Below, in pieces: positions 1 through 13,478 of a stretch of 64,000 nucleotides of DNA (position 1 is its first letter; each line of letters starts with the position of its first letter). The DNA is from Camelus ferus. Taxonomy: Eukaryota. The notes under the pieces were generated by a model, which was given only the letters and a program-made list of their open reading frames with translations, was not told where the DNA came from and searched no databases. The position numbers and the translations under genes are program-made. Location: the NCBI RefSeq assembly GCF_009834535.1, contig NC_045696.1:43836001-43900000 (forward strand). Direction: 5' to 3'.

Positions 1-1342
1 AGTTTGTGGAAAATAAACATGGTATTTTGGGACCCTTGAAAATGTAATACAAACTATGTAATTATCAAGGTATAACATGTAGATGTTTCATAAACAAATT
101 ACCTCACTTTTGTGTGACTTACATGCATCATTTAGGGATGAAGGATGTTAAAATCAAACCAGAGTACATCCTAATACAGCAAGAAACAACCTGGGAAGCT
201 GTGCAGAGTCCTGCACTACTCCATGCTTCTTCACCTATGTCTCACATTTACTGTTATTTCTGAAATGTTGAAATTATTAGTAAATTTTGACATTAGCTAA
301 GAGCTCCCATTTTGGTGGAATTTTAATGATCCCAGGTTGTGAGTTATCTCAGGGTGTCAATCTGGTTTGAAGGAGGGAATTGTAAGATTTGTTTTGAACC
401 TACACAAGCAAAGCAATTACTCCGTATTTATCTAGATTGTATATTTGGGGGGATTGTAATGGAAGGATTAATACAGATTATGGACTTAATACTCCAAGCC
501 ATCCACTTTTTGGCACTATCACTGTAGTGTAAACAGTGTAAATATCTAAGAGATAAGTAAACCTTATTTGTAAATAGGTACGTATCAATTACTTGGGAGG
601 AAGAGATGAGACTAGTCACTTTTCATTTCCTGTGCCATTTTTATTACTATACTAGGTCACTAGGTGGGCCTATGAAGATATTCAGTAAATAAATGGCATA
701 CATGAATTTATATTTTAGGTAAATATATCCTGTCCTTGATGTAGAGAATAATTTGGAGAAGAGCATACACTGAGGTAAAGAGAATAGCTGGCAGGGTTGG
801 GTGTTGGGGACTGTATTTATTGAGGGGAAAATTGATGCAGGATTTACATATGGTAGGAATGAGAGGTGCAGAGATACTTTGAAAGGAATGGCAATCTATT
901 GCATGTCAGGAATTATAGATAAGGATACAATTTAGGATGAATGTAATTATGTGTTTTCTATAAGTAGTATTTGTACACTAGAGAGAAAAGAATTATAAGA
1001 AGAATTCTAGAATACCACAGCTTGTCTTCCCCCCCCCCCACATAGTTCATTGGTATAGAGAACCGTGAGGAGGGTATTAGAAGATCTGCCCTCAATCCAA
1101 TGGAATTAGTCTATGTGAATGTCTCCTAAACATCATATGACATGACCTGTTCACATCAAGCTTTTCTTTGGCTGCAAAGTAGATACTACCAGCAACCAAA
1201 CAGAATGTGAGCTATTTTAAACTACATCAATCACTTATGTTGGCAAGTGCCTAAAAAATAAACATATATGAGAAACCAAAGCATAAGGAGAAGGCACATC
1301 ATCTTAAAGAGTCAGAGGAAATTCATTTCAAGAATATAATAT

Positions 1343-3065
1343 CAAAAAACAGGGAGCTTTAGTATAAACAAAGGTCCTGGGGAACAGAGAGGACCCAAGA
1401 GGCTTCTATAATTTAACACTCTGAAAGCACAGACAGTAGTAGCAAAAGTGTACCCCATCTCTGCTCTGCCCACTGGACAGAGAGGTGCACACTGCAGAGA
1501 GCTGGGGAATGACCAGTCATATGCTGGGGACGGGGAAGACGCTAACTCTGGCACAGGCAGAGGAAAGGGTCAATGGTTGTGCCTGTGAGTGGGGACAAGA
1601 TGAGGCCCCATTGTTGCTGCATATCCCCTTGTCTCTGTGGGAGCCAGTATGGGAATCTTCTGCCCACTCTCCAAATCTGTGCAGGGTGGAGACCCTAGCA
1701 GTTCATGGACCATGGTTAATCTTGTTAATGAGTTAATCAGTGAGGTCAGTGGGGAGGATTAGGCAAGGGGTGGGGGTCCCCGACATTCATGCCTTCACAT
1801 CACAATGCCTTGAGGACTTACCTGGTTGGGAGACGTCCCCTACCACATACTTGCTGGGTGACCTGGCCAACTTCCTTCTCCTGCCGAGGCCTCGTCTCAT
1901 CTGTGGAAGCCTTGCTCGGCTGGCCCAGCTGCAGATGAGGGCCTCCCAGCGGGCTGTGGCCATGCAGTCCTCCAGGAAGAGAGCTGGGGCTGCCCCTGGG
2001 CCATCTTACTGCCCACCAGGGTACTAGCACCAGCACCTCAGGGATACACTGGTGCAGCGCTGTGCGCAGCGCTTGGGCTGGGGCCACTGGGCCTCAGAGG
2101 ACCCGGCCTCTCGGCTTGTCCTCACTGTCCCTGCTCCCAAAGCCGCCCTGACTGGTGTGGCTCCGGCAGAGGGTGAATAAGAACTGCAGCTCTGCCTCTG
2201 TGTCTGTGCTGTCCACGGGGTGCGGGGCTGTTCGAGCAGGAGTAGGAGCAGAACTCGCTGGGGGGCAGGGCGGGAGTTACCCTGCAGGCGCCGCTGCTCC
2301 AGGGCTATGAGCGCGCAGGTGCGCGCGTCGGAGAGAATAAGGCGCATGCGCAGAGGCCTGCGTGCCCTGCCGCCAGGCGCTGACGGAACCCGGCTTGGCT
2401 GAGGGGAGAAGGCGGTCGGCCTCTTGTCAGCAGCTTCGGGGCCCTCCTCTGCCTCTCTCCTCCACTTGCTCACTGCTGGCTGCCGCCGACCACTCAGCCC
2501 CGGTGAAGCAGAGGTCCAAGGCCACAGCTTTGACCCAGGACCCGTGACTGTGGCGTAAGGCACTACTCGGCCTTCAGTGAAGGACCACACGGTGACCAGG
2601 TAATCTTTGCCATCCAGTCAGCACATAGCGGCAGTCAAGGTTCCAGAACAAGCAGAGCAGGTCCCTCAAGTAACTCTTTATGAGCCCAGCGGGAATGGAG
2701 TGTAAGTGGGGACAAGCCTGCAGCCGCTTTGGCTGACACAGGCTAGGCGCAAGCAGTGGGCTGAGAAGGCCGACTTGTGCAGTGGGTCACAGGGACCCTT
2801 GCTCTTGGCAGTGTAAACAGGGAAGCCCTGACCCTGCGTCAGCAGGTACTGGGGCTGGCGCAGGTGCATAGGTGCTTTCCTGATGTCTATATCACCTTGG
2901 TCTTGTCAATTAGCCATTAATCATTGAGTGCTGTGCTGGTGTCCTTCTTGATGAGATTCAAGTATTGCATTTGGCCAGTGGAGAACCCCACCAGGAGGGA
3001 GATGATCCTTGTGACATCAGTAAACTGGCCGAAGTCTTGGCAGGTGGGCTGGTGCCCTTATAGAT
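1343..3065 (-). pseudogene. DMWD: Processed (retro) pseudogene of DMWD, 5'-truncated, with frameshifts, stops and internal deletions; includes 3' UTR
   Basis: Minus-strand translation gives IYKGT/QPTCQDFGQFTDVTRIISLLVGFSTGQMQYLNLIKKDTS, LIDKTKV, PQYLLTQGQGFPVYTAKSK, GLIKSYLRDLLCLFW, LVTVWSFTEGRVV, LFLEDC...LICSWA, GEGSWP...SPSKYVV...SQPG, with a stop near 1795-1797. These are collinear with DMWD; QFT/QYL/KKDTS favour DMWD over its paralog WDR20. No introns. Possible ACTAAA poly(A)-signal variant at 1358-1363. Confidence 0.93.
2160..2600. promoter_or_regulatory. CpG-island-like segment inside the DMWD retrocopy, with NRF1 palindrome and GC box
   Basis: About 30 CpGs counted by eye in ~430 bp, versus very few in the outer parts of the same retrocopy. 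GCGCATGCGC at 2342-2351; GGGCGGGAG at 2268-2276. Confidence 0.55.
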
Positions 3066-3069
3066 GATA

Positions 3070-6000
3070 TAAATAATGCAAAAAGATACTGATGACTTTC
3101 CTTAAAATAAGAACAGATACCCATAAGGAGAAATACTAGAATGAATGAATGACTCTCAAAGAGACTGATAATTGAGATAATTTTCTTCAGAGATTAAAAA
3201 AGAAGATATAAAGAAAACTCAGGGAAATAAAAAGGCATTATAAGAAAACTCAAATTTCATAAGCAATATGGCCATGCTAAAGTTAAGAAAATTCTTAGTA
3301 ACAGCATGTAAGATTAAAAATTTTGCTCATACTGGAGAGAAGGAAGTGAAAATGAAAATTATGAAAGAGATAATAAATACAAAAGCTATCCCATCTATAG
3401 TAGTAATTACTCAGACAGCAGAGCGTTGTCAATAATATTTTAAAAGTTTATAACTCAAAAGTGTAAAAATAACTCATCCTTTTGGAAATGTTAAAAAATT
3501 ATTTTTTGTAAAATAAAACATTATTTAAAGTAGTACTCCATCTCACCCTTAGACTAAATTATAAACTCAAGAATGAAATAGTGTGACCAAAAAATAATAC
3601 CTTCACTAAACAGTGAAATGGCATAAATCAAGAAAAATCTAAAAGAAGTTATACATAAAAAGATAAATTTAATTTAATTCCTAAAAACAGTATACAGTAA
3701 AAATGCTGTGAAATGATGACCCAAAGAACTTACATGAACAAAAACTAATTGAGCAGTCTAATGATTAACTAAAATCAAATTAACCTAAAGTCGTTCCTAT
3801 GCAGGGAGAAATTAGAATACAATAATTAAAGAAATATAAGTAAAAGCAGAGTTTTCAAATACAGAGAGAGTGAATTAAGAGCAGAAGGTATACTTCTCAA
3901 ATGTATCCAATAGTAAAGAAAGCAAACTGATGACCACGCAGAAGAAAATAGAAAACCAAGCAGAATAAAATAGAAAATAAAGCAACAGCAAAATTACATA
4001 AACATGAAAATCATAAACATAAAGGCATTAGTACATTATTAACATACACATAAATACGTAAAATTTTATCACTATTAATCTTTTTCAGATTGTATAGTTT
4101 TATATTTGCATAGTACTAAAAATTCTGGAGCAAAGTAAGTGCTCAATACTTAATAGAGATGATGATGACAATGGTGATTGTTCTATGATGCTTTTAAAAA
4201 GTACACGTAGCACGGGGAAATATATACAAGATCTTGTAGTAGCTCACAGTGAAAAAGAATATGAAAAAGAATATATGTATATTCGTGTATGACTGAAAAA
4301 TTGTGCTGTGCACTAGAAATTGACACAACATTGTAAACTGACTATAACTCAATTAAAAAATAAAATTAAATAAAAAATTAAAAGAACACCTAATATATAT
4401 ACGCTAATATGTATCATATATGAAAAATAAAATGGAAACAATTATAAACTAAGGCAAAACACAGATGTGTAATGAATAAGAGAGCATGATGTTTTACATT
4501 AATTGATGCTTCAGTTTTGAGGATTTTTTTTTCTGAGTTTCTAATTTCTGTTTGGCATGTCTACTATTCAGAGAAAAGACTAATGGAAAACAGGTGGATA
4601 GAAAAGTCAGTTATTTAATCTGTCTTTCAAAAGCCAAAGCCCTTAGTGTACCAGAAAGGTTTTTAGGACATAAGCAATAAATTATTAAAAAAAAAATTCT
4701 AATGAGCCAGAGCTTCTCTAACTCAAGAATATGTAGAGGTTTCTTATTCTGGAGAGGAGAAACTGGGGTCCCTGAGGTATAGAACATACTAATGAGAGAA
4801 GTGGTAGAACTCTCATGATTTTCTGGGATTTAAGAGTGAGGAACATCTCTGCAGCACTTTCTGGGCTGGACTGGTAGCTGTATCAACATTCAATGGAAGA
4901 AACAGTTCTCTAATGTAAAAGGCCCTCAAGTTCACTGAATTTTCTAACTCTCAGTGCCGTGTAACGACTGATGATTTCAGTATGCCCAATATGCCTTAAG
5001 AACCAAAATGCCTTCTAGATCTATAGAAATTGCTACAGGGAACCAAGATGATTCAGTAGCAATATGCAGTGGTACAGTGACACAAACTCAAATGGTCAGT
5101 GGCTTTCTAAGTGATGTCAATGTAGAAAAACACCTAGCAAGAATGAAAAATCCAGTGTTTCTCACTCTATATCTTAATAAAGTCTTGACATTATATAAGT
5201 TATCTTGGAGAAGTGTTGAAGGCACCCATATTGATGGAGCCCAATGCTGATTTGGATTAAGTTTTGATATCTGGGAAAGATGAGGACTCAGAATAGAAAT
5301 TGAGTTGAGTTTCCAAAAATTCAAAAGCAGAAAGTTCTCATTCTGTATATTTGAATCTCTGAAATGAAATGTTGTATCAACAGTAATTATATAAAGATAT
5401 ATGAATATTTGTATGCTTAATCATGTTATACCAAATTAATAAATGTGAATTATTAAATGTATCAAAGATATAATTATTTACCCATAAAACCCAAGGCAAT
5501 CAGCAAAAAAATGAATAAAATTGATGAACTTATAAATAAAAAATTTAAACACTTTCTAATTTACCAATAACAAGATAAAAAAATATGAACATTTAAAGTT
5601 GCCTCAGGAAAACAGTTTTGAAGTACTTAGAAATAATTTTAATGAGAATATCATATGATTTAAAGAATATTTGAATAAACAAAAAGATAGAATATATGTC
5701 ATAAGTATAAAGACATAATTACTTCACAGATTAAAGTATAAATATTACTGTAAAAGTAAAAAGCCAAAGGGAATAAATTAAGAAAGTCATAAACTTAATA
5801 AAGTACTTTATAAGGTTTGTCAAATACAAAATAAAAACTGTAAAATCAGTATAATTCATATGTAGAAAAGTAACCAGGTAGAAGTTATAATTTTTAAAAA
5901 TCCAATTTAATAATAGAATAAAGCAAGATGTCCAGAAAACAAGAGTAATAATTTTGATTTCAGAGAGAAAGAATTATGAAAACGATGATGATAAATTAGA

Positions 6001-10649: not shown

Positions 10650-13478
10650 TTTTTTAACATTTTTTATTGATTTATAATCATTTTACAATGTTGTGTCAAA
10701 TTCCAGTGTAGAGCACAATTTTTCAGTTATACATGAACATATATATATTCATTGTCACATTTTTTTCTCTGTGAGCTACCATAAGATCTTGTGTATATTT
10801 CCCTGTGCTATACAGTATAATCTTGTTTATCTATTCTACAATTTTGAAATTCCATCTATCCCTTCCCACCCTCCACCCCCTTGGCAACCGCAAGTTTGTA
10901 TTCTATGTTTATGAGTCTATTTCTGTTTTGTATTTATGCTTTGTTTGTTTTTTTTGTTTTGTTTTGTTTTGCTTTTTAGATTCCACAAATGAGCAATCTC
11001 ATATGGTATTTTTCTTTCTCTTTCCGGCTTACTTCACTTAGAATGACATTCTTGAGGAACATCCATGTTGCTGCAAATGGCATTATGTTGTCGGTTTTTA
11101 TGGCTGAATAGTATTCCATTGTATAAATATACCACCTCTTCTTTATCCAGTCATCCGTTGATGGACATTTAGACTGTTTCCATGTCTTGGCTATTGTAAA
11201 TAGTGCTGCTATGAACATTGGGGTGCAGGTGTCATTTTGAAGTAGGGTTCCTTCTGGATATATGCCCAGGAGCGGGATTCCTGGGTCACATGGTAAGTCT
11301 ATTCCTAGTCTTTTGAGGAATCTCCATACCGTTTTCCACAGTGGCTGCACCAAACTGCATTCCCACTAGCAGTGTAGGAGAGTTCCCTTTTCTCTACAGC
11401 CTCTCCAGCATTTGTCATTTGTGGATTTTTGAATGATGGCCATTCTGACTGGCATGAGGTGATACCTCATTGTAGTTTTGATCTGCATTTCTCTGATAAT
11501 TAGTGATACTGAGCATTTTTTCATGTGCCTATTGATCATTTGTATGTCTTCCTTGGATAATTGCTTGTTTAGGTCTTTTGCCCATTTTTGGATTGGGTTG
11601 TTTGTTTCTTTCTTATTAAGTCATATGAGCTGCTTATATATTCTGGAGAACAGGCCTTTGTCGGTTTCATTTGCAAAAATTGTCTCCCATTCCATAGGTT
11701 GTCCTTTTGTTTTACTTATGGTTTCTTTTGCTGTGCAGAAGCTTGTAAGTTTCATTAGGGCCCATTAGTTTATTCTTGCTTTTGTTTCTATTGCTTGAGT
11801 AGACTGTTCTAGGAGAACATTTTTGAGATGTATGTCAGATAATGTTTTGCTTATACTTTCTTCTAGGAGGTTTATTGTATCTTGTCTTATGTTTAAGTCT
11901 TTGATCCATTTTGAGTTGATTTTTGTGTATGGTGTAAGGGAGTGTTCTAGCTTCATTGCTTTACATGCTGCTGTCCAGTTTTCCCAACACCATTTGCTGA
12001 TGAGACTGTCTTTATTCCATTGTATGTTCTTGCCTCCTTTGTCGAAGATTAGTTGACCAAAGGTTTGTGGGTTCATTTCTGGGCTCTCTATTCTGTTCCT
12101 TTGGTCCATATGTCTGTTTTTGTACCAATACCATGCTGTTTTGATTACTGTAGCTCTATAGAATTGTCTGAAGTCTGGGAGAGTTATTCCTCCAGCCTCT
12201 TTCTCTTCAGTAATGCTTTGGCAATTCTAGGTCTTTGATGGTTCCAAATAAGTTTTATTATGATTTGTTCTAGTTCTGTGAAATATGTCCTGAGTAATTT
12301 GATAGGGATTGCATTAAATCTGTAGATTGCCTTGGGCAGTGTGACCATTTTAACGATATTGATTCTTCCAATCCAAGAGCATGGGATAGCTTTCCATTTT
12401 TTAAAGTCTTCTTTAATTTCCTTCATCAGTGGTTTATAGTTTTCTGTGTATAATTCTTTCACCTCCTTGGTTAGATGTATTCCTAGGTATTTTATTACTT
12501 TGGGTGCTATTTTAAAGGGGATTGTTTCTTTACTTTCTTCTTCTGTTGATTCATCGTTAGTGTAAAGAAATGCAACTGATTTTTGAACGTTAATCTTGTA
12601 ACCTGCTACCTTGCTGAATTCTTCGATCAGCTCTAGTAATTTTTGTGTGGACCTTTTAGGGTTTTCTATATATAGTAACATGTCATCAACATATAGTGAC
12701 ACTTTTACCTCTTCTTTTCGAATTTGGATCCCTTTTATTTCTCTCTCTTGCCTGATTGCTGTGGCTAGGACTTCCAAGACTATGTTGAATAGGAGTGTGA
12801 CAGTGGGCATCCTTGTCTTGTCCCAGATTTCAGAGGGAAGCTTTTGAGTTTTTCACCATTGAGTACTATGCTGGCTATAGGTTTGTCATATATAGCTTTT
12901 CTTATGTTGAGATATGTTCCGTCTATATCCACTTTGGGGGGAGTTTTTATCATAAATGGGTATTGAATTTTATCAAATGCTTTTTCTGCATCTATTGAGA
13001 TGATCGTGTGGTTTTTGTCCTTTTTCTTGTTGATGTGATGTATTACATTGATTGATTTGCGTATGTTGAACCACCCTTGTGTCCCTGGGATGAACCCCTA
13101 CTTGGTCATGATGTATAATGTTTTTTATGTGCTGTTGGATTCTATTTGCTAATATTTTGGTGAGGACTTTTACATCTATGTTCATCAGTGATATTGGCCT
13201 ATAATTCTCTTTTTTGGTAGTGTCTTTGCCTGGTTTTGGTATCAGGATGATGGTAGCTTCATAGAATGAGTTTGGGAGTATTCCCTCCTTTTCAATCGTC
13301 TGGAAGAGTTTAAGAAGGACTAGTATGAGTTCTTCTTTATGTGCTTGGTAGAATTCCCTGGTGAAGCCATCTGGTCCTGGACTTTTATTTGTAGGAATGT
13401 TTTTTATTGCTAATTCAATTTCATTTTTAATGTTTGTTCAAGTGGTCAGTTTCTTCTTTATTCAGTCTTGGTGGACTG
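10650..13478 (-). mobile_element. Young 5'-truncated LINE-1 (3' part of ORF2 with RT domain, plus 3' UTR); frameshifted, inactive
   Basis: ORF2 peptides [75 protein letters not shown], ending LICGI* at ~10976. Perfect 13 bp TSD CCTCCATACAATA at 10637-10649 and 13479-13491. Confidence 0.97.

What the first reader, a model, noticed from the sequence alone, without database searches (positions are those of the whole stretch)
2160..2605. Dead DMWD retrocopy whose centre looks like an exapted CpG-island promoter
Seen: the retrocopy is old (many frameshifts, stops and deletions; outer parts CpG-poor), yet 2160-2600 holds ~30 CpGs including runs such as GCGCGCAGGTGCGCGCGTCG, a full NRF1 palindrome (GCGCATGCGCA, 2342-2352) and a GC box (2268-2276). 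Known: methylated pseudogenes lose CpGs quickly, and NRF1/Sp sites mark unmethylated promoters. The palindrome lies where DMWD encodes F-C-L-W-D-L, which it no longer spells, so it appears to be derived. Inference: this segment has stayed unmethylated in the germline and may act as a new promoter in an otherwise AT-rich gene desert.
Basis: partly seen in the sequence, partly recalled or inferred. Interest (0 to 1): 0.8.

Follow-up and report, generated by a model that had tools for sequence, protein, structure and literature searches.

The report
Orphan CpG island in DMWD pseudogene
The middle of an ancient dead copy of the DMWD gene has kept the CpG richness of an unmethylated CpG island while the rest of the copy decayed, and RNA data sets contain the region, so it may act as a promoter in gene-poor DNA, which is a known way for retrocopies to seed regulatory DNA.

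Summary
Window 3075-1346 (minus strand) is an old, 5'-truncated, intronless copy of DMWD exons 2-5; the intron-bearing parent lies on contig C9. Positions 2160-2605 hold 31 CpGs (GC 0.66, O/E 0.65), and the core 2200-2420 holds 22 (GC 0.70, O/E 0.86). This is the only CpG-island-like segment in 264 kb of 33% GC DNA.

Uniform decay is rejected. The core keeps 22 CpGs against 25 in the parental interval; all other segments pooled keep 31 against 94. A conservative flank-calibrated simulation gives P=0.0003, or P=0.003 after scan correction. The NRF1 palindrome is absent from the parental interval and unlikely by chance.

Base-level alignment of the core is unstable, so "retained" and "newly made" CpGs cannot be separated.

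RNA-seq contigs from two studies hold 21-66% of the sampled words of 1300-3300. No reads could be laid, so start site and strand are unknown.

Verdict: long-term germline hypomethylation is fairly well supported. Promoter activity is plausible but unproven. Retrocopy-borne CpG-island promoters are already known, for example PPP1R26P1 in RB1, so this is a new member of a known kind.

The parts
1346..3075 (-). 5'-truncated processed pseudogene (retrocopy) of DMWD, covering exon 2 (from about its 45th base) to the 3' UTR end
   Evidence: It is collinear with the spliced parental exons and lacks introns. It carries stops and frameshifts in all frames. The parent is named DMWD by its orthologues.
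2917..3075 (-). Part derived from DMWD exon 2
   Evidence: 84% identity to parent positions 1496-1641. The exon 2/3 junction is read through without an intron.
1908..2916 (-). Part derived from DMWD exon 3, with several deletions. The parental exon 3 is itself CpG-island-like (GC 0.67-0.76, O/E 0.6-0.8).
1346..1907 (-). Part derived from exon 4, the exon 5 coding end and the 3' UTR. The exon 4/5 junction lies near 1835.
2141..2520 (.). CpG-island-like segment: 380 bp, 28 CpGs, GC 0.67, O/E 0.65. It is the only such segment between -200 kb and +64 kb.
2200..2420 (.). Island core: 22 CpGs, GC 0.70, CpG O/E 0.86, TpG+CpA O/E 1.22 (the lowest of all segments of the copy). It is homologous to parental mRNA positions of about 790-1145, which encode a disordered loop of DMWD.
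2342..2351 (.). Perfect palindrome GCGCATGCGC. That it matches the NRF1 consensus is recalled, not tested. It is derived, being absent from the parental interval.
2268..2276 (+). GC box GGGCGGGAG (Sp1-type consensus, recalled). It is not above chance, and the parental interval has more such boxes (5).
2311..2330 (.). GCGC-rich run GCGCGCAGGTGCGCGCGTCG holding 6 CpGs. It faces parental GGCCCGCACCCGCACCC.
1358..1363 (-). ACTAAA hexamer inherited from the parental 3' UTR, about 12-17 bases before homology ends. It is a candidate poly(A) signal for a sense transcript. That this hexamer is a signal variant is recalled; its function is not tested.

Best explanation
An mRNA of DMWD was reverse-transcribed and inserted, 5'-truncated, into AT-rich gene-poor DNA early in placental mammal history. 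The copy is dead as a gene. Its exon-3-derived part arrived as about 1.2 kb of CpG-island-like sequence. Most of it then became methylated in the germline and lost CpGs until a third or less of the parental density remained. A core of 220-380 bp (2141-2520, densest at 2200-2420) escaped this decay. It now has CpG O/E 0.86, above that of the parental interval, and no excess of TpG/CpA. This is the state expected for DNA that is mostly unmethylated in germ cells, where CpGs turn over at ordinary rates.

The likely mechanism is the known one for CpG islands. High CpG and GC density, together with binding sites for methylation-sensitive factors, keeps de novo methylation out. Here one such site is a derived perfect NRF1-type palindrome. 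Such islands usually initiate transcription.

RNA-seq assemblies from two studies contain large parts of the locus. The island therefore most likely serves as the promoter, or lies in the first exon, of an unannotated non-coding transcript or expressed pseudogene.

Shown: retrocopy identity and age class, non-uniform CpG density, derived palindrome, uniqueness of the island, and presence in RNA-run contigs. Inferred: germline hypomethylation, factor binding, and promoter activity with its direction.
For: 1. Retrocopy and parent.

2. Age. K=0.18 at non-CpG first and second codon positions outside the core, with no codon-position effect. The flanks sit at CpG O/E 0.10-0.46, so there was ample time for decay.

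3. Non-uniform density. The retro/parent CpG ratio is 22/25 in the core against 31/94 pooled elsewhere (Poisson P=5e-5). A conservative simulation gives P=0.0003, or P=0.003 scan-corrected. Segment B faced the same 25 parental CpGs and has 7 left.

4. Composition. Core CpG O/E is 0.86 against 0.68 in the parental homologue. TpG+CpA O/E is 1.22 against 1.56 and 1.64 in segments B and F.

5. The core is collinear DMWD sequence, not a foreign insert: alignment z=5.4, and z=3.8 for the least similar 213 bp. It is unique in the genome.

6. The NRF1-type palindrome is derived and improbable by chance (P=0.001 among 16 motifs).

7. It is the only island-like segment in 264 kb.

8. RNA. Four runs of study P1 (0.83-0.94 thousand million letters each) hold 0.57-0.66 of the sampled 31-mers of 1300-3300. 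Three runs of study P2 (0.18-0.24 thousand million letters) hold 0.21-0.45. My inference is that runs of under 0.5x genome size cannot assemble this from stray DNA.

9. Precedents. In PMC3839921 (abstract and section 6 read), a CpG island derived from an internal exon of the truncated retrocopy PPP1R26P1 is a promoter. In PMC4772013 (passages read), about half of novel human retrocopy promoters overlap CpG islands, with Sp1 and NRF1 motifs enriched. In PMC8286816 (passages read), CpG density, GC content and factor sites together keep islands unmethylated.
Against: 1. In the alignment, 9 of 17 aligned parental CpGs in the core read TG or CA, no fewer than in the flanks (22 of 54). Retention is 6/17 against 8/54, which is only P=0.08. 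Taken at face value this means loss as fast as elsewhere plus many gains, not protection.

2. The base-level alignment of the core is unstable: 1-7 inherited CpGs depending on parameters. There is an excess of C<->G mismatches (14/122 against 28/654, P=0.0035) that may be misalignment. The history of individual CpGs is therefore not known.

3. The island is short and fails the stricter 500-bp criterion (O/E at most 0.63).

4. GC skew shows no clear start-site polarity: +0.19 at 2201-2400 and -0.07 at 2401-2600. The expected pattern is recalled.

5. No reads were laid. There is no start site, strand, splice or level. Four rows of unknown kind hold 0.96-0.97 of the words, so the RNA could be a transcript that merely runs through.

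6. No methylation data and no other species were available.
Confidence: 0.5

Rival explanations
1. Hypomethylated orphan island without promoter function. The core is kept unmethylated by factor or CXXC-protein binding, as an enhancer, a Polycomb target or a neutral 'footprint'. The RNA seen comes from a transcript that starts elsewhere and runs through the locus.
For: The sequence evidence for escape from decay is the same as above. No start site was seen. Rows of unknown kind hold 0.96-0.97 of the words, beyond the retrocopy's ends. The review PMC8286816 (passages read) describes orphan islands acting as enhancers.
Against: No other island or candidate promoter lies within -200 kb to +64 kb. 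The RNA shares plateau at 0.63-0.66 in three of the four P1 runs (the fourth holds 0.57) rather than nearing 1. This fits a bounded transcript of about 1.3 kb; that is inference, not shown.
Confidence: 0.2
2. Biased-gene-conversion island. A local recombination hotspot drives W->S changes that keep creating CpGs, while the DNA is methylated and CpGs deaminate fast. There is then no regulatory role.
For: Apparent fast loss (9/17 TG/CA) together with many apparently new CpGs (15 of 22). W->S is 12/52 in the core against 70/487 in the flanks, and S->W is 12/122 against 98/654. The implied equilibrium GC is about 0.70 against 0.49. This regime is described in PMC8286816 (passage read).
Against: The W->S and S->W differences are not significant (P=0.10 and 0.16). 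TpG+CpA is lowest in the core, not in excess. GC falls sharply to 0.28-0.35 at the retrocopy's edges, and the surrounding 264 kb is 33% GC with O/E 0.12, unlike high-recombination DNA. That such islands sit in GC-rich, subtelomeric DNA is recalled.
Confidence: 0.12
3. No special state. The centre is simply what is left of the most GC-rich part of a very CpG-rich exon, with uneven decay by chance. The 'new' CpGs and the palindrome are products of post-hoc selection and misalignment.
For: The core faces the parent's most GC-rich stretch (GC 0.73). The alignment is unstable. Retention alone is not significant (P=0.08).
Against: Scan-corrected P=0.003 under a null that over-produces CpGs (simulated total 64 against 53 observed). 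Segments B and F started with equal or similar CpG numbers (25 and 22) and GC 0.68-0.72, yet fell to 7 and 8. The density test does not depend on base-level alignment.
Confidence: 0.1

Closest known systems
PPP1R26P1 CpG island (CpG 85) in RB1 intron 2 (Kanber et al. 2013, PMC3839921; abstract and section 6 read)
   Same: It is a 5'-truncated retrocopy whose CpG island derives from an internal coding exon of the parent, not from the parent's promoter. That island works as a promoter, and other copies of the same gene became fully methylated. The paper concludes that the fate depends on sequence and integration site.
   Different: The RB1 case lies inside a gene, is differentially (parent-of-origin) methylated, is primate-specific and young, and its promoter activity was shown by experiment. 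The present case is intergenic in a gene-poor region and far older (K about 0.18). Only a 220-380 bp core survives, and its methylation and start site are unknown.
CpG-island promoters of expressed retrocopies (Carelli et al. 2016, PMC4772013; passages read)
   Same: Retrocopies commonly gain expression from CpG islands not tied to other genes (103 of 200 novel human retrocopy promoters). Sp1 and NRF1 motifs are enriched.
   Different: There the island usually lies upstream of the copy and drives a copy that is often intact. Only about 3% inherited parental promoter sequence. Here the island is inside a dead copy, made from coding sequence, and could drive either strand.
Orphan CpG islands (Illingworth et al. 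2010, PMC2944787, listing and start of abstract seen; review PMC8286816, passages read)
   Same: It is an intergenic island far from annotated promoters. Many such islands are unmethylated and initiate transcription or act as enhancers.
   Different: Orphan islands were defined biochemically, by unmethylated CpG capture. This one is defined by sequence only and is short.
Retrotransposition as a source of new promoters (Okamura and Nakai 2008, PMC2386082; listing and start of abstract seen)
   Same: It shares the idea that retroposed sequence itself can supply promoter activity.
   Different: As I recall it, that work concerns promoter-proximal 5' sequence carried along with the transcript. Here the 5' end, including exon 1, is missing, and the island comes from exon 3.

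Membership tests
Processed pseudogene (LINE-mediated retrocopy) | Collinear with the spliced exons of an intron-bearing parent elsewhere in the genome; introns absent | tested here: met
   Exon 2/3, 3/4 and 4/5 junctions are read through without introns. The parent has introns of about 1.8, 0.9 and 0.35 kb on contig C9.
Processed pseudogene (LINE-mediated retrocopy) | Disabling mutations and no codon-position constraint | tested here: met
   Stops are present in all three minus-strand frames, with many frameshifting gaps. Mismatch rates are 0.148, 0.175 and 0.214 at codon positions 1, 2 and 3.
Processed pseudogene (LINE-mediated retrocopy) | 3' poly(A) tract and target-site duplications | tested here: inconclusive
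   Homology ends about 12-17 bases after an ACTAAA hexamer, but no A-run follows. Target-site duplications were looked for by eye only and not seen. Both may be erased at this age.
CpG island, sequence definition (Gardiner-Garden and Frommer; thresholds recalled) | >=200 bp, GC >=0.5, CpG O/E >=0.6 | tested here: met
   2141-2520: 380 bp, GC 0.67, O/E 0.65. The best 200-bp window has O/E 0.89.
CpG island, stricter definition (Takai and Jones; thresholds recalled) | >=500 bp, GC >=0.55, O/E >=0.65 | tested here: not met
   The best 500-bp windows reach GC 0.63-0.67 but O/E only 0.60-0.63.
Unmethylated (biochemical) CpG island | Lack of CpG methylation in germ line and soma | not testable with these tools
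   There is only indirect evolutionary evidence: parental-level CpG density against a third elsewhere, and no TpG/CpA excess.
CpG-island promoter | Transcription start sites within or at the edge of the island | not testable with these tools
CpG-island promoter | Stable transcript from the locus | tested here: inconclusive
   RNA-run contigs of studies P1 (4 runs, 0.57-0.66 of words) and P2 (3 runs, 0.21-0.45) hold much of 1300-3300.
NRF1-bound site | Match to the palindromic consensus GCGCATGCGC (recalled) | tested here: met
   There is a perfect match at 2342-2351, the only one in 64 kb. P=0.001 in shuffles of the island. Occupancy is not testable.
Biased-gene-conversion island | Excess of W->S over S->W substitutions relative to flanks | tested here: inconclusive
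   W->S is 12/52 against 70/487 (P=0.10). S->W is 12/122 against 98/654 (P=0.16).

The most novel reading that the evidence does not exclude
A fragment of coding sequence from a retrocopy roughly 80-120 million years old evolved, by CpG turnover and the de novo birth of a perfect NRF1 palindrome, into a self-maintaining CpG-island promoter. This promoter drives a reproductive-tract-expressed non-coding RNA in an otherwise promoterless desert of more than 260 kb. It would be a dated, stepwise example of promoter birth from dead exon sequence.
Probability: 0.3. Interest if true: 0.5.

Novelty: new member of a known kind. Interest (0 to 1): 0.35.

Why it matters
If the island is unmethylated and initiates transcription, it gives a cleanly polarised case: parent sequence known, flanks serving as an internal decay control. 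It would show how a CpG-rich exon dropped into AT-rich DNA shrinks to a self-sustaining core and acquires factor sites such as NRF1. This bears on how orphan CpG islands and new promoters arise, and on whether island maintenance is DNA-encoded. It does not reveal a new principle. Retrocopy-borne island promoters and orphan islands are established (PMC3839921, PMC4772013, PMC2944787).

Tried and rejected
1. Laying RNA reads to find start sites, strand and splices. Nothing was laid.

3. Cross-species conservation. No other mammal genome is held. A protein search with the 197-aa open frame across the island found 1 protein among 1307 candidates: P0001, 98% identical, on a 906-bp Logan contig. It is a near-identical relative or individual, so it says nothing about deep conservation. 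Its 3 internal differences include one CGC/His codon and one CAG/Pro codon, too few to read.

4. Foreign insertion or repeat as the source of the core is rejected. The core is collinear with DMWD (z=5.4 and 3.8), its only genome match is itself, and there is no Rfam family above threshold (one miRNA-model match at 26 bits against a gathering score of 92).

5. Classing each CpG as inherited or new was abandoned as unreliable. The count of inherited CpGs is 7 or 1-5 under five parameter sets. At least one 'new' CpG (AAGCCGGG) is probably ancestral, because other placentals encode Gly where the camelid parent has Ser.

6. The GC box is not supporting evidence, since it is not above chance.

7. 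Earlier notes of this scan: nothing exists on this genome or sequence. A word search returned unrelated cases.

8. Literature search for 'DMWD' with 'pseudogene': 12 papers hold both terms. None of the 10 listed titles concerns a DMWD retrocopy (titles and abstract starts only).

9. (Pfam on raw translations) failed on stop codons and was not pursued. One search timed out and was rerun.
Full report
**What is there.** The window is G000:C1:43836001-43900000 of a 2.09-Gb genome.
- On the minus strand, 3075-1346 aligns piecewise to G000:C9:15375976-15383138. Identity is 84% (exon 2), 68% and 72% (two blocks of exon 3), 85% (exon 4) and 67% (exon 5 and 3' UTR).
- I located the parental splice sites, joined exons 2-5 and aligned them globally to the window.
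- The copy reads straight through the 2/3, 3/4 and 4/5 junctions. It starts about 45 bases into exon 2, so exon 1 is missing. It ends 12-17 bases after an ACTAAA hexamer of the 3' UTR. It is full of stops, frameshifts and deletions.
- The parent's exon 3 translation is 97% identical to narwhal 'dystrophia myotonica WD repeat-containing protein', and 99% identical to the alpaca protein over the 63% covered. The parent is therefore DMWD, and a camelid origin is plausible though not proven.

**Age.**
- Outside the island core, non-CpG mismatch rates are 0.148, 0.175 and 0.214 at codon positions 1, 2 and 3, and 0.165 in the UTR. K is 0.18 for positions 1 and 2.
- The parental protein is almost invariant among placentals (for example 99/99 and 113/118 residues identical to narwhal in two intervals). 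Most of this divergence therefore lies on the pseudogene lineage.
- With recalled mammalian rates of 1-2.2e-9 per site per year this gives about 80-180 million years.
- The copy appears to contain the Ser/Gly-rich segment that placental but not marsupial DMWD proteins have. The alignment there is weak.

**The observation.**
- 2160-2605 holds 31 CpGs (GC 0.66, O/E 0.65). The core 2200-2420 holds 22 (GC 0.70, O/E 0.86). The outer parts have O/E 0.22-0.24 and the whole window 0.13.
- The GCGC run, the GCGCATGCGCA palindrome and the GC box are at the stated coordinates.
- By 200-bp windows the island runs from 2141 to 2520. It fails a 500-bp, O/E 0.65 criterion.
- Over 264 kb (200 kb fetched to the left plus the window), GC is 0.33 and O/E 0.12, and this is the only island-like segment.
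- Of 51 open frames of at least 110 aa in those 264 kb, 2 have Pfam hits. Both are reverse transcriptase of an L1 remnant at window 11.8-13.4 kb.
- 'AT-rich, gene-poor' is thus consistent. Small exons could not be excluded.

**Is the density just inherited?**
- The parental exon 3 is itself island-like: GC 0.67-0.76, 14-21 CpGs per 200 bp.
- I counted parental and retrocopy CpGs segment by segment:

| Segment | Parental CpGs | Retrocopy CpGs |
|---|---|---|
| A 3075-2869 | 7 | 1 |
| B 2868-2606 | 25 | 7 |
| C 2605-2421 | 17 | 8 |
| D core 2420-2200 | 25 | 22 |
| E 2199-2160 (mostly deleted) | 11 | 1 |
| F 2159-1909 | 22 | 8 |
| G 1908-1346 | 12 | 6 |

- Pooled outside the core the ratio is 31/94 = 0.33, against 0.88 in the core. 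The Poisson P is 5e-5.
- The simulation replaced every parental base using the substitution matrix and CpG outcomes observed in the flanks outside 2160-2605.
  - It expects 10.9 +/- 2.75 CpGs in the core (P=0.0003).
  - The best 221-bp window anywhere reaches 22 in 0.3% of 20000 runs.
  - This null is conservative: it lets new CpGs arise without decay and over-predicts the total (64 against 53).
- Core CpG O/E (0.86) exceeds that of the parental homologue (0.68). Its TpG+CpA O/E (1.22) is the lowest of all segments; B is 1.56 and F is 1.64.

**What weakens the simple 'stayed unmethylated' story.**
- The core is the part least like the parent. BLAST did not align 2380-2168 at all, although homology is significant (z=3.8; z=5.4 for 2420-2160). 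Three-frame translation also shows collinear remnants of the DMWD loop.
- The base-level alignment is unstable. 7 of 22 CpGs sit on parental CpGs, and 1-5 of 23 under five parameter sets.
- In the alignment, aligned parental CpGs in the core are kept in 6/17 against 8/54 in the flanks (P=0.08). They read TG or CA in 9/17 against 22/54 (P=0.41).
- C<->G mismatches are in excess (14/122 against 28/654, P=0.0035). This may reflect misalignment in 70-75% GC sequence.
- At least one 'new' CpG is probably ancestral and was lost in the camelid parent. The copy has Gly-type GGT where the parent has AGT, and other placentals encode Gly.
- The robust statement is about density and composition, not about the fate of individual CpGs. 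High turnover with gain remains possible.

**Motifs.**
- GCGCATGCGC occurs once in the window. It is expected 0.001 times in dinucleotide shuffles of the island (P=0.001, 16 motifs tried), and it is absent from parental mRNA 701-1260.
- In the alignment it replaces TGTGGGAC...GACGTGC with an 11-base deletion.
- The GC box is unremarkable (P=0.11), and the parent has 5.
- The motif consensus strings are recalled.

**Expression.**
- Of 24 listed runs, 18 hold the stretch 1300-3300 or part of it, from 5 studies.
- On record as RNA: four runs of study P1, labelled reproductive system, with 831-939 million letters, hold 0.57-0.66 of 194 sampled words. Runs of study P2, with 178-242 million letters, hold 0.45, 0.34, 0.21 and 0.13.
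- Four rows of unknown kind (study P5) hold 0.96-0.97 and may be the source DNA.
- Runs of less than half the genome's size could not assemble this locus from stray DNA, so I infer real transcripts. The parental mRNA, at 67-85% identity, cannot supply the 31-mers.
- Start sites, strand, splicing and extent are therefore unknown.
- The plateau near 0.63-0.66 in three of the four P1 runs would fit a bounded transcript of about 1.3 kb, for instance from the island's upstream edge to the inherited ACTAAA. This is conjecture.

**Explanation and rivals.**
- *Best reading (0.5).* A CpG-dense exon fragment was deposited in AT-rich DNA. Its margins eroded through methylation, while a core stayed mostly unmethylated in germ cells, gained an NRF1 site, and now initiates or heads a non-coding transcript.
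- *Rival: an unmethylated island that is not a promoter (0.2).*
- *Rival: a biased-gene-conversion island (0.12).* This is hinted at by W->S 12/52 against 70/487 and an implied equilibrium GC of 0.70. Those differences are not significant, there is no TpG/CpA excess, GC drops sharply at the copy's edges, and the surroundings are AT-rich.
- *Rival: chance (0.1).*

**Comparison with the known.**
- The closest case is PPP1R26P1 in RB1 intron 2. It is a truncated retrocopy whose internal-exon-derived CpG island is a promoter, while sister copies are fully methylated (PMC3839921, abstract and section 6).
- Carelli et al. found that 103/200 novel human retrocopy promoters overlap CpG islands, with Sp1 and NRF1 motifs enriched (PMC4772013, passages).
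- The review PMC8286816 (passages) lists the four evolutionary regimes of island-like sequence. It states that CpG density, GC content and factor sites jointly keep islands unmethylated.
- Orphan islands as promoters: PMC2944787 (listing and abstract start only).
- I found no paper on a DMWD retrocopy (titles only).

**Verdict.** The hypomethylation inference is moderately supported by sequence. The promoter claim is plausible but untested. It is a new member of a known kind and of modest interest.

Noticed in passing
window 4207-4412: This is the 3' end of a young, high-copy interspersed repeat, L1-like by eye. At least 39 other copies at 86-95% identity were scored, out of 3562 first-look candidates in the genome.
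   Followed up: partly
window 11768-13437 (minus strand): Open frames of 153-222 aa carry Pfam RVT_1 matches (E 1e-12 and 4e-10). They are an L1 ORF2 remnant and the only Pfam-recognisable coding remnants in 264 kb.
   Followed up: partly
G000:C9:15379400-15380700 (parent DMWD exon 3; L002 about 1378-2649): The functional DMWD exon 3 is itself CpG-island-like over about 1.2 kb (GC 0.67-0.76, O/E 0.6-0.8), although it lies inside the gene body. The end of exon 1 has O/E 1.0.
   Followed up: partly
parent DMWD, residues around ...PLPKASSITY...: The parent encodes Ser (AGT) where narwhal, muntjac, squirrel, mouse and pig have Gly. The retrocopy still has GGT. This looks like a CpG->CpA change in the camelid functional gene after the retroposition.
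   Followed up: partly
window 2288-2290, 2264-2266, 2192-2194: A Logan-derived protein (P0001, on a 906-bp contig) matches the island's 197-aa open frame at 98%. It differs at three internal codons, and two of these involve gain or loss of a CpG. The contig spans the whole island.
   Followed up: partly
window 1029-1039: A run of about 11 C lies in AT-rich flank, 300 bp beyond the retrocopy's 3' end. It was not examined.
   Followed up: no
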